From Perna viridis (Eukaryota), in contig CM074511.1 of the NCBI GenBank assembly GCA_037379345.1, forward strand, positions 2,852,001-2,916,000: a stretch of 64,000 nt of DNA, in the 5' to 3' direction. Position numbers: made by a program. Shown here piece by piece: positions 1 through 24,000 of this stretch; position 1 is the stretch's first letter; each line of letters opens with the position of its first letter.

Positions 1-3000
1 ATTTTGTCAGGAAACAGATTTTCCTTACTTTCTGATAACCATTATACAGAAATAATTTCTCTTGCATATCAAATGATTAACTTACGTTATTTAGATATGT
101 CATACAACCCCTTACATTATCGAGATATTACGTACTGTAACCTAGAACTGATGCACCACGAACTTGTTTACACTGACGGTTGCTATGGTAATAGCGGTGG
201 AAACAACAGGGATCTTTCTAGAAACAAAACATTGGATAAAACCACTGTGGTTACTTTTCCTTTACCACCAAAACTTACATTCATTCGTCTAACGCATTAT
301 CTTACTGAAAGTATCCCAATAGGAAATAAAATAATTCTGAAGAATGCCGAGAATCTAAAATACGTTGATGTATCTTACATGTCTTTACAGTATTTTCCTG
401 ACATTTCTTCAGAGACCCATTTCAACGTGCAATACCTTGATATGTCCGGTATAGATGCTAATATATTTCTAAATAAAACCTCTGTACCCATATTACAGAA
501 GTTAAAAACTGTCATTGCGCAGAATGTCCGTCTCAGTGAGATTTCCGGAACATTAAAGAAAGTGTTTAGTCTTTTCCCTAATGTACAAAAGCTTGATATA
601 TCTTTTAATAACTTGTGGTACATAGACGGAAATGCGTTTTCAAACAGCAAAATGCTTAATGATTTAACAATTTCACACAATATACTTTCTTTGGTACCTG
701 ACGGAATCATGCAAGTGACAACTATATCAACATTTGACATTAGATACAACAGACTCGAATCCATTAATCAAACTATGCGGAATTGGATGAACCAGCAAGC
801 AAAAAACAGAAAGTTTGTATTGAAAATAAAAGGCAACAGCCTTAAATGTACTTGTGGTACGAAGGATTTTGTAAGATGGTTGTTCGAAAATCCATACAAC
901 ATAATCTTTGATGAAACATCGAAGAATTACCATTGTATTTTAGACAATGGTACGGTTAGTGACACTGCCACTGTAAATAACCATTTCAATCAACTGTTTT
1001 CAGATTGTGACAGCAAAACATGGCTTAAAACTGGAGTCACAACAATTGTCATCCTATTTATCTTAATTTTTATATCGGCTATTGTATTCAACTATCGTTG
1101 GAAAATTATGTTTTGGTTGTATACTAAGTTTAAACGTGTTGTTCAACGTGGTTTGGACAACAAATTAAGGTTTGATGTCTATATATCATACTCCGAAGAT
1201 TATTTTCCGTGGATTAGCACAGTCCTTTTGCCAAAACTGGAAAAAACGTGGAACTTGAATATTTGCATCGAAGACAGAGACTTCATGTTGGGACGACCAA
1301 AATCTGACGAAATTGTGAAAAGTATTTCTGAAAGTAGAAATGCTATTTTTGTTATTTCTGAATCGTCTCAACAAAACCAGTGGAATCAATTTGAAATAGA
1401 AAGAGTAAAACATGAGAAATGCACCAACTTTTTACAAAAAATAATTGTTATAGTTAAAGACACTGCTCAAGTACCACGTGACTTTGATGACATTCTCAAA
1501 AGCATGACTATGATCACGTGGTCTGATGATGAGTTCGGCTGGGATGAGTTACGAATGGCACTATTTTCTGAAAAACTGTAACTAAGTTTAATTTAGATAT
1601 ATATTTTTATATTTATTTTTATTGCTGATATTAATGTGATTTCTGTATTACGGTGACTTTTTCCGAGTGAACTTGACTATGATCACATGGTCAGATAATG
1701 AGTTCCGCTGGGATAAGTTACGGATCGCACTATTTTCTGACAAAATTTAACGAACATTTTCCTTCTCAAAAGTATTTATACGACTTATACGGTTTTGTTC
1801 AGCGTCATGATAGATATTTAGAAAAAAATATTTAACGTCGGTGATTACACATACATGTACAAGTCAACAATTAATATAAGTTTGTAGAGTGTTTAACCGA
1901 AGGCGAAATTTACGACAATTTGGCTAAAGTGAGCTTGCATGGTTGCCAGGCTTGTGACAAAGGAAAGCTCCAAATTTCAGACTGGAAAATAGATGAAACT
2001 CCCGGGCTATGGTAGGGCCTCGAAACTTTGACACATGTGGGATTTAAATCACTGCAGTTTCAACCACGTTATTACAAGTCCAACCACTCGGCAACACTGC
2101 CCCCCCCCACCCCCAAATAATATGAGGCAAATTTAATATGTAAGAAAACGAAGTAAAAGCTAGAGTGGCATTATCATTCTAGTGGACTTGGTGCGTTTTG
2201 TCTGTGGATCGAGTTCATATGTTAAGATACGAAACTAGCTAATTTTATATTTTCATTCAGTTTTTTTTTCATTCGGAACTATTCGGTCATTTTACGTGCA
2301 TAAGTTCCGGTAAAGTTCCACTGGTTGTTACATCCAGTCAGACTGAAATCAGCATCTCATAACTTCTGAAGATATATCTTAGATTCGTGTTTATTAGTGT
2401 AGGAAATAGGCAATTTCACACCAAACTCTATTTACACACAGGCACTTGGGGCATGAATGGTAAGAACTACAGACCCCCCCCCTTTGGTGCCTGAAATGCC
2501 TGTGATTTAATATACTTAGCGTAAATGACAACATAAAATACATTGTTAAAGGCTAAATGTGTATGTACCTATCTCGATTGGAAAGTTAAATGAAATTTCT
2601 TTTATAATTTGCGATCAACATATTTGGCAATACAATATACCTCATGGTTTTTTATTATTAATTTACAAATAGAAATATGAGGGTTTTTTTTTAATTTGTC
2701 CATGAGTATCTGTTGTAAACGGTTGTCCACTCCCTTGTATTTCCTGTTATTCGATCATTAATGGTGATTAAAATTGTTTTCTACATGCGAATCATGAATC
2801 ATACAAAACTAAGGTTAATGTCTCCTTCAATACAATTCTAAAACTTTTTATGAAGAAAATTTTAATAGCATTAGTGCTGGTAATCTGAAAAAGAATGCAA
2901 GTAAAGATTGCTTCGCTATGAATTATTTAAACAAAAATGTAAGTGTTTGTAGTGTCTCTTGTCTTTTGGGAGGTTTCTTTCTTTTCCCGTCTTTGCTTCA

Positions 3001-21000: not shown

Positions 21001-24000
21001 CTATTAAGGATTTGTAAATACCATTTGTTTCATCTGTTGATTTTTCAGTATATTTTGTTTCTGTTAAGGATTCGTTAGTATCCTTTGTTCCTATTTTGGA
21101 TTCGTCACTACACTTTGTTTCAGTAGATGATTCTTTAGTACCCTTTGTTTCTGTTGATGGTTTTTCAGTAGCCTTTGTATTATTTGAAGGGTCTTTAGTA
21201 CCCTTTTCTACTGTTGAAGATTCCGTAGTCCTCTTCGTGTCTGTTGAATCCTTTGTTTCTGTTAAAGATTCTGCAATACCCTTTGTTTCTGTTGAGGATC
21301 CGTCAGTCATGTTTGTTTCTGTTGATGTATGGGCAGCGTTCCTTGTTTCACTTGATTCTTTAGTTCTCTTTGTTTCCGTTAAAAAATCCCTGGTACTCTT
21401 GGTCACGGAAAAAAGTTCATCAGCAGATTTTGTTAAAGGTTCCGCTGAAATGTTTGTTCTATATGAAAGTGTCTCGCCTTGTGTTGTTTTAGTTGAAAGC
21501 TCTTCGAAGGTAGCATCTGTATTCTTTGATTCTGGTATTAATTTTATTTCTATCAAGGTCTCTTCAGTTTCATTTGGGTAAATTGAATCATCTGTTTCTG
21601 TTTTAAATGCAAATGCCTCTAAATTTTCAGACATATATGTTTTGGTGTATTCCGTGTTAGCGTCTACAGCACTGTATTTGCCGTCTTTGGATGAATCTGG
21701 GTAAAGTTTCTTTATTGAATCCTTGTAGATCAAGGCTACGATATCTTTACTAGCATGTGATATTTCTTCAATTTGTTCATAATTTACTGTCTTTTCAATA
21801 TCGTCATTAAAATTGCTTTCAATGGAAACTGATTCTGAATGCTCACTTCCGTTAAATGTGTTCTCTGCTACTGACCGATTTAAGCCTAAATCGTTATCCA
21901 CTGCGTCCTCTTGTTTGAACTTTAAAAATTCTGTAGATTCTAGATTTTCCATTGCCTCTGTTAAAATACCGTCAACGAATTCTGTGCTGTATTTTGACAC
22001 ATCGTCAATATTTTCTCTTTCATATTTGGCTTCCCCGGTGTCAATACCTTCATTTATTTTGTCAGTTGTATATTTTGTCTCAGGATTCATTCCAGTTGCG
22101 TCCTCTGTGTCAATAATTGTTTCACGTTTAATGTCATTTTCAGTTACTTCATTGGTTGTAACCGGAACATTTTTCTCATTAACAGGCACAGATATAATGT
22201 TTTCCTCATTTGAATCCCTCGTATTAAATATTAACTCATTCGGTTGACTGGTAGTTACATGTGTATCGTTTGACCCGTACTCAATGTTTGGTTCCAAATG
22301 TATCTCATTTGTTGCGTCTTTGATGTTTTTTGTCTCGTCTATCTCATCTGATATTTCCAAATTCTTTTCAGAAACTGGATTTGTTTCCGTATTTATCCTG
22401 TCATACTCCGCTAACTGTTTTGTTTTATCAGTTTTAATGTTTGAACTGTTATTCATTCCTGCAAACTTATTTGTGTGGTCTAAATTATTTCTTGTCGCAT
22501 TGTCACTTCCATTCAACCCAGTAGCTGTCGACCCATTGTATTGTGTGGCATGATTTGTTTCAGCAATATTTTTGGCATTGTCTGTGGGCTTTTCCGAATC
22601 TTTCATGAATGGACCATATGTTGCTCCTTTTGGTTTTTTTTTTAATCCAGATGCCATGTACTAGCCAACAAAATTCCTAAAAATAAAAAAAGAGTACAAG
22701 TTGCCAGTAATATATCAAATTTGTTTCCCCAACTAAGTTTAGTATTTGGCTCTTTAGACTAACCAGAATGTTACTTGTAAACCTATAATATCAGGCAGAA
22801 ACCTAACGCGACGAGAACAATAGAACTCGCGCTCTCGTTTAGTTGAGGCGGAAAAGTGAATCCTGTTGTTTATTGCCTTTTCTAATGACCTCAAAAGTTA
22901 CTTTTAGACAAAAAAAAGTTATTATTTTCAATTTAAGTTAGGAATACTCTTAGTAAACATTAAATATCAACAAAAAACAGTATCAAATAATACTAAAATA
23001 AAGCCTCGATCTTTAATTGAAATGATTTTGAGTGGGGGTACTTTTAATCAAAACTGGATCACCCTTTGTGTTTCATCACAAAAAAAAAATCAGGAAAAAA
23101 ATACACAAGTCTGTCAAATGTGTACTACCATCATGCCAAATTTGGGATTTTTTCTAGCTGTAATTATTATAAAGGAAAAATTTTGAGTGAGTCGGGACAT
23201 CGAAGGCTTGCTGATGTACACATGGCATACATTTATTTAAATTTACCTGTATAATTCCGTCAATAAACCTGTCAACAATTAAGTTCAAGGTTACATGTAC
23301 GTGTATGTCGGAAAAGTGCATGGTTTATACCAAAAGTGATTTTTACAATTATACATCTATCAGTGATATTTAATCAAATATTATTTTAGTACACTTTTCA
23401 CTCTATTTACTAAGAGTTGTATTCGCGAAAAATCTGAAAATTTGATTTTAAGGTGTCTGTGTTAGTGCTGAGTGACATAATTTTGGTTGGTCAGTAGACT
23501 ACGCGACATCCCTACAAAACCCCGAAATCAATACAAACCTTTCTTTACCCTGTTATAAAATGTTATTAAGATCAACCTAATCTGGTGTTTGAATCTTTCC
23601 GTAAGGCTGAAAGCATGCATCTCACACCTCTTTTTCATCAAAATTATTGAATCTAATCTATGTACATGTATAAATACTATAATACCCACAATGAAAATTT
23701 CTGTAAGTTTCAAATAGGCTTCTGGAACAGGGTTATGTTGCTACAAGATTGAAGTCATCACTACAGAAGTTCTATGGTCGTCATCATGAACTCGTGGATC
23801 GTTATGGTGTATCCATCTGCACCATGAAAACTGCTTTATTCAGTGGGTCATAGTTTTCCTTTCCTCGTTTGTCTACCCCGGACTGACTTTTTATAAGCAA
23901 CTCGGTGGGTGTTTCTAGAAAAGCAGAGGACGCTTACCCTACCAGTGCACCTGGTCCATGCTCCCAGTTTTTAGTGGAGTCCGAGTTGCTCATTTGCTTT

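What the first reader, a model, noticed from the sequence alone, without database searches (positions are those of the whole stretch)
2927..22657. Two separate ORFs probably form one ~6,238-aa protein via a 29-nt microexon and a GC-AG intron
Seen: the donor G|GTGAGT (7029, phase 1), microexon 6524-6496, GC donor ATG|GCGAGT and acceptor at 5986 (phase 0) join without a stop, giving 15628+29+3060 nt. The product has a basic N-terminus, ~5,000 aa of acidic T/E/S/K repeats, an R/S/P-rich linker (RPTSGGRYRPFSA), ~900 aa of coiled coil and a K/R-rich tail. It has no signal peptide and no globular domain I recognise. Inference: an intracellular giant spacer or scaffold, with a coiled-coil anchor and a very long charged, phosphorylatable disordered arm, rather than a secreted mucin.
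Basis: partly seen in the sequence, partly recalled or inferred. Interest (0 to 1): 0.7.

Follow-up and report, generated by a model that had tools for sequence, protein, structure and literature searches.

The report
Giant repeat protein gene, probably spliced
Two long open reading frames on the minus strand most likely belong to one gene for a roughly 6,200-residue protein, a very long acidic disordered repeat arm followed by a helical rod and a basic tail, but no transcript or homologue evidence could be obtained.

Summary
On the minus strand there is a 5,222-codon frame (6992-22660) and a 1,045-codon frame (2927-6064). The named sites are at the stated bases, and 15,628 + 29 + 3,060 nt gives 6,238 codons without a stop.

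"Joins without a stop" is weak alone: 46 frame-restoring, stop-free internal exons exist in the 1,043-nt spacer. Only 6524-6496 also has a strong acceptor and a consensus donor. That occurred in 1 of 5,000 shuffles and 0 of 156 other windows, by criteria set after seeing it. GGTRAGT occurs twice in the window, once 36 nt before ORF1's stop. I put the one-gene model at about 0.7; it is unconfirmed.

Exon 1 is about 390 ten-residue units (consensus E-T-K-G-T-D-E-S-S-T) in 2,115-nt higher-order repeats up to 98.4% identical. Net charge is -486, with no hydrophobic segment and no predicted fold. Exon 3 shows heptad periodicity (z = 6.1), helix over residues 25-904 and a tail of net +22.

Pfam, PDB and Atlas gave no family. 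The intracellular spacer reading fits but is inferred.

The parts
22658..22676 (-). Putative 5' UTR segment after an acceptor-like site (ctctttttttatttttag|G); contains the in-frame TAG one codon before the ATG
   Evidence: Read directly. Its role is inferred.
7030..22657 (-). Coding exon 1: 15,628 nt, 5,209 codons plus 1 base, starting at ATG 22657
   Evidence: There are 0 stops in frame against 329 and 506 in the other two frames.
21368..22657 (-). Non-repetitive N-terminal 430 aa: acidic (net -42) and N/T/E-rich. Only the first dozen residues are basic.
   Evidence: AF2 single-sequence pLDDT is below 50, with short helices at residues 192-343. No Pfam or PDB match.
8557..21367 (-). Decapeptide-type repeat region (30-nt unit, consensus E-T-K-G-T-D-E-S-S-T), about residues 431-4,700
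   Evidence: TRF periods of 30, 90 and 405 nt. Profile built from 171 anchored units. Composition E 18, T 18, S 15, K 11%.
9868..19497 (-). Higher-order repeat array of 2,115-nt (705-aa) units. The core, 12151-19497, is 98.4% identical copy to copy; outer copies are 92-95% identical. Sub-repeat lags of 750 and 1,365 nt.
   Evidence: Autocorrelation peak at lag 2,115. Self-blastn. All lags are multiples of 3.
8494..8684 (-). Separate short array of a different 30-nt unit (N-V-E-N-H-S-S-G type), 6.4 copies
7030..8556 (-).
   Evidence: No Pfam or PDB match. Best Atlas score 0.78, which is noise level.
7024..7030 (-). Donor G|GTGAGT, phase 1, 36 nt before ORF1's TAG
   Evidence: Highest-scoring of 46 GT/GC sites in ORF1's last ~600 nt by a crude recalled matrix. 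One of 2 GGTRAGT in the window, against 11.3 +/- 3.5 expected.
6525..7029 (-). Proposed intron 1 (505 nt, GT-AG), with TTAAC 31 nt before the exon
6496..6524 (-). Proposed 29-nt microexon (phase 1 in, phase 0 out)
6490..6495 (-). GC donor GCGAGT, preceded by TG
   Evidence: TGGCGAGT occurs once in the window. GG[TC]RAGT occurs 9 times per 128 kb.
5987..6495 (-). Proposed intron 2 (509 nt, GC-AG), with a pyrimidine-rich 3' end, a T9 run, and TTAAC 33 nt before the exon
2927..5986 (-). Coding exon 3: 3,060 nt, 1,019 codons plus TAA
3275..5914 (-). Helical, heptad-periodic region (exon 3 residues 25-904)
   Evidence: 3.5-residue periodicity z = 6.1 against shuffles. AF2 gives helices over residues 25-904 at low confidence, mean pLDDT 42.
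2930..3274 (-). Basic, unstructured tail (residues 905-1,019). The last 119 aa carry net +22. Includes KKRKKR at 3101-3118.
   Evidence: The likeness to a nuclear localisation signal is recalled, not tested.
2651..2866 (-). Candidate poly(A) signals after the stop (ATTAAA 2866-2861, AATAAA 2656-2651)
   Evidence: Read. Such hexamers are common in AT-rich DNA.

Best explanation
One gene on the minus strand encodes a protein of about 6,238 residues from three coding exons: 22657-7030, 6524-6496 and 5986-2927. A GT-AG intron and a GC-AG intron, each about 505 nt, join them.

The protein has no signal peptide or membrane segment. Its first ~5,200 residues are an acidic, well-mixed polyampholyte built from about 390 ten-residue E-T-K-G-T-D-E-S-S-T-type units. 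These units were recently amplified as 705-residue blocks.

The last ~1,000 residues are a helical, heptad-periodic rod about 130 nm long if fully coiled, ending in a lysine/arginine-rich tail.

Inferred mechanism: the rod and basic tail attach the molecule to an intracellular polyanionic or filamentous structure, such as chromatin, RNA or microtubules. The repeat arm acts by bulk. It would be a hydrated, negatively charged, non-sticking chain with a random-coil radius of gyration near 30 nm and a contour length near 1.9 um. Such a chain excludes or spaces neighbouring structures.

Selection appears to act on keeping the arm open-reading and long, not on its exact residues.

Shown: the frames, sites, repeats, composition and periodicity. 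Inferred: the splicing, the localisation and the spacer role.
For: Splicing:
- The donor at 7029 scores 6.8; the next best of 46 GT/GC sites scores 3.2.
- GGTRAGT occurs only twice on both strands of the window (11.3 expected), and one copy lies 36 nt before ORF1's stop.
- Of 46 frame-restoring, stop-free internal exons, only 6524-6496 has an acceptor with at least 12 of 14 pyrimidines plus YAG and a G|G[TC]RAGT donor.
- An equal-quality solution arose in 1 of 5,000 dinucleotide shuffles of the spacer, and in 0 of 156 windows of 1,043 nt taken from 24001-64000.
- Given the acceptor, such a donor at one of the 16 in-frame positions before the next stop has a chance of about 16 x 7e-5, or 0.1% (my arithmetic).
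- TTAAC lies at -31 and -33 of the two acceptors. It is found there at 134 of 3,984 (3.4%) other AG sites.
- The spacer has 19-28 stops in every frame.

Protein:
- Exon 1 has net charge -486, and E+T+S+K make up 59%.
- In the repeats the fraction of charged residues is 0.37 and net charge per residue is -0.10. Kappa is 0.118 against 0.160 +/- 0.016 when shuffled.
- The maximum 19-residue hydropathy is 0.61 in exon 1 and 0.73 in exon 3. In the first 40 residues the maximum 9-residue value is -0.20.
- AF2 gives almost no secondary structure for residues 1-700.
- Exon 3 has heptad periodicity z = 6.1, against -1.0, -0.5 and 1.4 in three exon 1 segments. It is helical over residues 25-904, then unstructured. 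The tail has net +22.

Open-frame maintenance:
- Among 92 substitutions between recent repeat copies there are 0 stops, against 4.3 expected (P = 0.0145).
- Every repeat lag is a multiple of 3.
Against: - No transcript, orthologue or peptide evidence exists here.
- The model needs a GC donor (under 1% of animal introns; PMC7072748, passages) and a 29-nt exon together.
- The quality criteria were set after seeing the candidate. The donor matrix is recalled and crude, and my acceptor score did not rank 5986 among the top 15 of 80 AG sites.
- ORF2 has its own ATG at 5953 with A at -3.
- ATTAAA and AATAAA hexamers lie in the spacer at 6887-6882, 6462-6457 and 6381-6376, so a two-gene reading is possible.
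- Both AF2 models are low confidence (mean pLDDT 42.2 and 36.7, single sequence).
- Repeat copies show no purifying selection on residues: 77 non-synonymous against 15 synonymous, with 21.8 synonymous expected (P = 0.048). Differences are not biased to the third codon position.
- S-x-E is about 1.9-fold enriched. I recall this as the motif of a secretory-pathway kinase.
- The number of near-identical 2,115-nt units may depend on the assembly.
Confidence: 0.5

Rival explanations
1. Two genes. The repeat gene splices from 7029 into a short last exon that starts at 6524 and ends at the TAA at 6477-6475, or it is not spliced and ends at the TAG at 6992. It is then polyadenylated in the spacer. The coiled-coil ORF is a separate gene that starts at ATG 5953, possibly with a 5' UTR intron ending at 5987.
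For: - The TAA lies 6 codons past the microexon. ATTAAA at 6462-6457 and AATAAA at 6381-6376 follow it.
- ATG 5953 has A at -3.
- GC-AG introns are under 1% in animals (PMC7072748, passages).
- 46 frame-restoring alternatives show that frame compatibility alone is cheap.
Against: - Under this reading the in-frame G|GCGAGT after the acceptor is a coincidence of about 0.1% (and my arithmetic).
- An equal-quality bridging exon arose in 1 of 5,000 shuffles and 0 of 156 other windows.
- It leaves under about 500 nt for a poly(A) site plus the next promoter.
- The 80 nt before 5986 look like an intron 3' end.
Confidence: 0.25
2. A secreted, acidic, heavily modified matrix or mucus protein (mucin-like or biomineral-associated), with a signal peptide on an exon I did not find.
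For: - The repeat array is S/T-rich (33%) and acidic.
- S-x-E occurs 239 times against 126 +/- 10 in shuffles.
- There is rapid repeat turnover.
Against: - There is no hydrophobic N-terminus.
- An in-frame TAG lies one codon before the ATG, and only purine-rich sequence follows it, so there is no acceptor for an upstream coding exon.
- Proline is only 2.9% and cysteine 1.0% in the repeats.
- No cysteine-rich or other extracellular Pfam domain was found in the 2,019 of 5,209 exon 1 residues scanned, nor in exon 3.
- A 900-residue heptad region with a basic tail is not a mucin feature.
Confidence: 0.07
3. A young, largely unconstrained expansion. The gene is real, but the repeat arm is a neutrally drifting satellite-like array inside an exon. 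It would have no length- or charge-dependent role, and the functional unit would be only the flanks and the coiled coil.
For: - Copies are up to 98.4% identical.
- There is no excess of synonymous changes, 15 observed against 21.8 expected.
- There is no third-position bias.
Against: - There are 0 stops against 4.3 expected among 92 changes (P = 0.0145).
- About 390 older units at 60-70% nucleotide identity all remain in frame.
- Charges are more evenly mixed than in shuffles.
Confidence: 0.15

Closest known systems
Neurofilament H/M side-arms and the MAP2/tau projection domain (recalled; no call)
   Same: A filament- or polymer-binding part is joined to a long, highly charged, unfolded arm that is thought to space neighbours by steric and electrostatic repulsion.
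   Different: Here the arm is N-terminal, about 5,200 residues, acidic and T/E/S/K-based. It is not made of K-S-P repeats: [ST]P occurs 28 times against 51 expected. No intermediate-filament rod or tubulin-binding repeat was found by Pfam.
Ki-67 (recalled; no call)
   Same: A giant, repeat-rich, largely unfolded protein with a basic C-terminal end that binds a polyanion and a long arm acting as a surface spacer.
   Different: As recalled, Ki-67 is basic overall, has an FHA domain and 122-residue repeats, and has no long coiled coil. Here net charge is -486 in exon 1, and no Pfam domain was found.
Treacle / Nopp140-type acidic serine-rich repeat proteins
   Same: They are compositionally similar acidic S/T plus K repeats. 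An Atlas cluster named 'putative Treacle protein' was the nearest to the last 390 residues of exon 1.
   Different: The Atlas score was 0.78, a level that shuffled proteins reach about a third of the time. There was no Pfam match. I treat this as likeness of composition only.
CCDC154 (PF15450) coiled-coil family
   Same: The third-ranked Atlas cluster for exon 3 (score 0.87, 157 shared features) carries PF15450 in 98% of its members. They are eukaryotic, mostly echinoderm.
   Different: The score is below the tool's 0.9 lead threshold and below the 170-feature mark. Pfam found no family in exon 3 at E up to 1.
U2-type GC-AG introns and microexons
   Same: The GC donor has consensus at -1 and at +3 to +6. 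The acceptors have pyrimidine tracts. The exon is 29 nt.
   Different: Nothing differs in kind. The combination is rare and is unverified here.

Membership tests
U2-type GC-AG intron | GC at intron positions +1 and +2, with otherwise near-consensus donor (G at -1, R at +3, AGT at +4 to +6) | tested here: met
   TG|GCGAGT at 6497-6490. The consensus itself is recalled.
U2-type GC-AG intron | AG acceptor preceded by a pyrimidine tract and a branch-like motif | tested here: met
   A T9 run, CAG at 5989-5987, and TTAAC at -33.
U2-type GC-AG intron | Actual removal from transcripts | not testable with these tools
Microexon | Internal exon of about 30 nt or less, flanked by functional splice sites and preserving the frame | tested here: inconclusive
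   It is 29 nt, goes from phase 1 to phase 0 and has no stop. Site quality is beyond chance by post hoc criteria. Usage is unverified.
Coiled-coil protein (structural class) | Long helices with heptad (3.5-residue) hydrophobic periodicity | tested here: met
   z = 6.1 against 200 shuffles. Helices of 30-110 residues over positions 25-904, at low pLDDT. Only 5 prolines lie in residues 1-904.
CCDC154 (PF15450) | Match to the Pfam profile | tested here: not met
   0 families for exon 3 at E up to 1.
Intermediate filament / neurofilament | IF rod domain (Pfam Filament; name recalled) | tested here: not met
   0 Pfam families in exon 3. 0 PDB sequences at E up to 0.1.
Secreted mucin / PTS-domain protein | N-terminal signal peptide | tested here: not met
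   Maximum 9-residue hydropathy in the first 40 residues is -0.20. There is no segment above 0.61 in exon 1. An in-frame stop lies just upstream of the ATG. This is a hydropathy scan, not a dedicated predictor.
Secreted mucin / PTS-domain protein | Pro/Thr/Ser-rich repeats with cysteine-rich flanking domains | tested here: not met
   T and S are high, but P is 2.9%, and E+D+K+R make up 37% of the repeats. No Pfam domain was found in the pieces scanned.
Treacle / Nopp140 | Match to family profiles, or a clear feature-space neighbour | tested here: not met
   No Pfam match in 2,019 of 5,209 exon 1 residues. Atlas score 0.78.

The most novel reading that the evidence does not exclude
This is a lineage-restricted protein of about 6,200 residues. 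It acts as a cellular 'surfactant' or micron-contour entropic tether. A helical rod about 130 nm long with a basic, nuclear-localisation-like tail docks on chromatin, RNA or microtubules. A 5,200-residue acidic decapeptide brush keeps surfaces apart. Selection acts on the brush's length, charge mixing and open frame rather than on its residues. The two halves are coupled only through a 29-nt microexon with a GC donor. That arrangement could let alternative splicing switch between an anchored and an unanchored arm.
Probability: 0.12. Interest if true: 0.6.

Novelty: new member of a known kind. Interest (0 to 1): 0.4.

Why it matters
If the join is real, automatic annotation is likely to split this locus into two unrelated "uncharacterised" proteins. 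Most gene finders disfavour both 29-nt exons and GC donors. The join changes the biology: a free acidic repeat protein and a free coiled coil become one anchored brush.

The locus is also a clean case for asking what selection preserves in a giant disordered arm. Here that appears to be the open frame and the charge mixing, not the residues.

Giant repeat-plus-coiled-coil proteins are not rare in animal genomes, and nothing here points to a new mechanism. The value lies mainly in annotation and as a test case.

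Tried and rejected
- **Pfam.** Scanned exon 3 and four exon 1 pieces covering 2,019 of 5,209 residues. Only a sub-threshold Extensin_1 line appeared (E 0.021, 15 bits against a cut-off of 105).
- **PDB sequence search.** Exon 3, the first 430 residues and the last 510 residues of exon 1 gave 0 hits at E up to 0.1.
- **ESM Atlas.** Both calls gave best scores of 0.87 and 0.78, below the lead level.
- **Complex prediction.** Two copies of exon 3 residues 614-904 gave "no answer", with a score of 0.00 against a mark of 0.32. 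The controls were not run. This is no evidence either way.
- **Fold search.** Not run, because both models have mean pLDDT below 45 and the tool warns that such models give meaningless matches.
- **CpG observed/expected profile.** Run to look for a promoter between the ORFs. It was uninformative.
- **Rfam and tRNA scans.** Nothing found.
- **Plus-strand ORFs inside the repeats** (for example 15966-16865). They are low-complexity mirror images of the sense repeats, are cut by a stop about once per higher-order unit, and have no Pfam match. I rejected them as genes.
- **Direct splice from 7029 to 5986.** Rejected, because phase 1 does not match phase 0.
- **GT donors inside or just after the microexon.** With the 6524 acceptor they leave the wrong phase for 5986 (read). 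With the weak nearby acceptors 6517 and 6502 they do restore the frame, but they fail the site-quality test.
- **Literature.** The searches returned nothing relevant (listings only). led to PMC7072748. No supplements were seen.
- **Not possible here.** The species was not identified.

Full report
**What is there**

The window is 64 kb, about 34.6% G+C, and has no N. I did not take it for human. Its first 1,581 bases encode, on the plus strand, the C-terminal part of a Toll-like receptor with LRR and TIR domains (TIR E = 2.2e-13).

On the minus strand, a stop-to-stop frame of 5,222 codons runs from 22660 to 6992. A second frame of 1,045 codons runs from 6064 to 2927.

Neither frame is chance:
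- Exon 1 has 0 stops in frame, against 329 and 506 in the other two frames.
- Its non-repetitive first 430 codons have 0 against 32 and 52. Its last 510 codons have 0 against 26 and 57.
- Exon 3 has 0 against 77 and 103.
- The 1,043-nt spacer has 19-28 stops in every frame.

The ATG at 22657 has an in-frame TAG one codon upstream. An acceptor-like pyrimidine tract ends at 22677, and purine-rich sequence follows the ATG. An upstream coding exon is therefore unlikely.

**The proposed join**

The lengths are 15,628, 29 and 3,060 nt, with phase 1 then phase 0. That gives 5,209 + 10 + 1,019 = 6,238 codons.

I never assembled, searched or folded the joined protein, so that step is left out.

A stop-free join alone means little. 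The spacer contains 46 AG...GT/GC internal exons that restore the frame without a stop. What singles out 6524-6496 is site quality:
- With a crude, recalled donor matrix, 7029 scores 6.8. The next best of 46 GT/GC sites in ORF1's tail scores 3.2. Apart from its C, the site at 6495 is the top-scoring donor in the spacer.
- GGTRAGT occurs only twice in the whole window on both strands, against 11.3 +/- 3.5 in shuffles. One copy sits 36 nt before ORF1's stop.
- I then required an acceptor with at least 12 of 14 pyrimidines plus YAG, and a G|G[TC]RAGT donor. The same quality arose in 1 of 5,000 dinucleotide shuffles of the spacer, in 5 of 2,000 with a relaxed acceptor, and in 0 of 156 other 1,043-nt windows.
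- Those criteria were chosen after seeing the candidate, so the figures are generous.
- Given the acceptor, a donor of this kind at one of the 16 in-frame positions before the next stop has a chance of about 0.1% (9 sites per 128 kb; my arithmetic).
- Both acceptors carry TTAAC about 30 nt upstream, as do 134 of 3,984 (3.4%) other AG sites.

Against the join:
- GC-AG introns are under 1% of animal introns (PMC7072748; passages seen).
- 29-nt exons are rare (recalled).
- ORF2 has its own ATG at 5953 with A at -3.
- Poly(A)-like hexamers lie in the spacer.
- My acceptor score did not rank 5986 highly.

I put the one-gene model near 0.7 and the exact microexon near 0.6-0.65.

**The repeat arm**

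- TRF finds 30-, 90- and 405-nt periods. Autocorrelation peaks at 2,115 nt.
- Self-blastn shows 2,115-nt units 98.4% identical over 5.2 kb. Outer copies are 92-95% identical, and there are internal lags of 750 and 1,365 nt. All lags are multiples of 3.
- The ten-residue profile from 171 anchored units is E-T-K-G-T-D-E-S-S-T.
- Exon 1 is E 17%, T 17%, S 14% and K 10%, with net charge -486.
- In the repeats the charged fraction is 0.37 and net charge per residue is -0.10. Charges are more evenly mixed than in shuffles (kappa 0.118 against 0.160 +/- 0.016).
- No 19-residue window exceeds a hydropathy of 0.61.
- AF2 on residues 1-700 (single sequence, mean pLDDT 36.7) gives almost no secondary structure.
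- Among 92 substitutions between recent copies, 77 are non-synonymous, 15 synonymous and 0 create stops. A spectrum-matched neutral simulation expects 65.7, 21.8 and 4.3. P(0 stops) = 0.0145, and P(15 or fewer synonymous) = 0.048. There is no third-position bias.
- The open frame therefore seems to be kept, while the residues are not.

**The rod and tail**

- Exon 3 is K-, E-, L- and Q-rich with net charge -1.
- It shows 3.5-residue hydrophobic periodicity at z = 6.1. Three exon 1 segments give -1.0, -0.5 and 1.4.
- AF2 (mean pLDDT 42.2, low) makes it helical over residues 25-904 and unstructured from 905.
- The last 119 residues carry net +22 and include KKRKKR. I recall this as resembling a nuclear localisation signal.

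**Family searches**

- Pfam found nothing in exon 3, nor in 2,019 of 5,209 exon 1 residues.
- PDB sequences gave nothing at E up to 0.1.
- The Atlas gave only sub-threshold neighbours: a CCDC154-bearing cluster at 0.87 and a "Treacle" cluster at 0.78.
- Homologue searches in animal data were closed, so I cannot say whether relatives exist or whether the gene is already annotated.

**How it most likely works**

This is inferred. The rod and basic tail dock the protein on an intracellular polyanion or filament. The arm acts by bulk as a hydrated, negatively charged, non-adhesive chain that spaces or shields. Its contour length is about 1.9 um and its random-coil Rg about 32 nm, from recalled scaling laws. 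The rod would be about 131 nm.

The nearest analogies are neurofilament side-arms, the MAP2/tau projection domain and Ki-67. All three are recalled, and none passes a membership test here.

Rivals are two separate genes (0.25), a secreted matrix protein (0.07), and a neutrally drifting array with no role for the arm (0.15). The last is compatible with one gene.

**Verdict**

The gene model is favoured but unproven, and the function is inferred from composition. This is an ordinary kind of object, a giant repeat protein, with an unusual and testable splice bridge. Interest is 0.4.

Noticed in passing
window 1-1581 (+): The 3' part of a Toll-like receptor gene (LRR repeats, a hydrophobic segment, a TIR domain with E = 2.2e-13). 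It is open at the window's start and convergent with the giant gene, with about 1.3 kb between the two stops.
   Followed up: partly
window 41382-41870 (-), 50809-51171 (-), 57934-58323 (-): Three ORF fragments share similar peptides, the first two with a Y-I-D-D-V-L-S-L-type motif. They are probably decayed copies of one interspersed, reverse-transcriptase-like element. Pfam found nothing for the two I scanned.
   Followed up: partly
window 23887-24180 (+) and 40823-41161 (-): Two ORFs on opposite strands give nearly the same peptide stretch (V-F-V-P-G-L-H-S-x-D-Y-H-Y-N-L-G-S-L-D-Y-S). This suggests an interspersed repeat present in inverted orientation about 17 kb apart. One copy lies about 1.2 kb upstream of the giant gene's ATG.
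   Followed up: no
whole window, both strands: The strong-donor heptamer GGTRAGT is depleted: 2 occurrences against 11.3 +/- 3.5 in dinucleotide shuffles, and all 100 shuffles had at least 2. The second copy is at 30749-30755 (-), with no long ORF nearby.
   Followed up: no
window 12151-19497 (-): Recent repeat copies differ mostly by non-synonymous changes (77 of 92), with fewer synonymous changes than a neutral simulation expects (15 against 21.8, P = 0.048). This could reflect diversifying pressure, composition-driven mutation or gene conversion. It is not resolved.
   Followed up: partly
window 8118-20795 (+): A series of 249-493-codon antisense ORFs lies inside the repeats, several spaced 2,115 nt apart. 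They are hydrophobic low-complexity mirror images of the sense repeats and have no Pfam match.
   Followed up: yes
window 62235-62549 (+): A 104-codon ORF with a long serine-rich low-complexity run lies in the most AT-rich, C-skewed end of the window.
   Followed up: no
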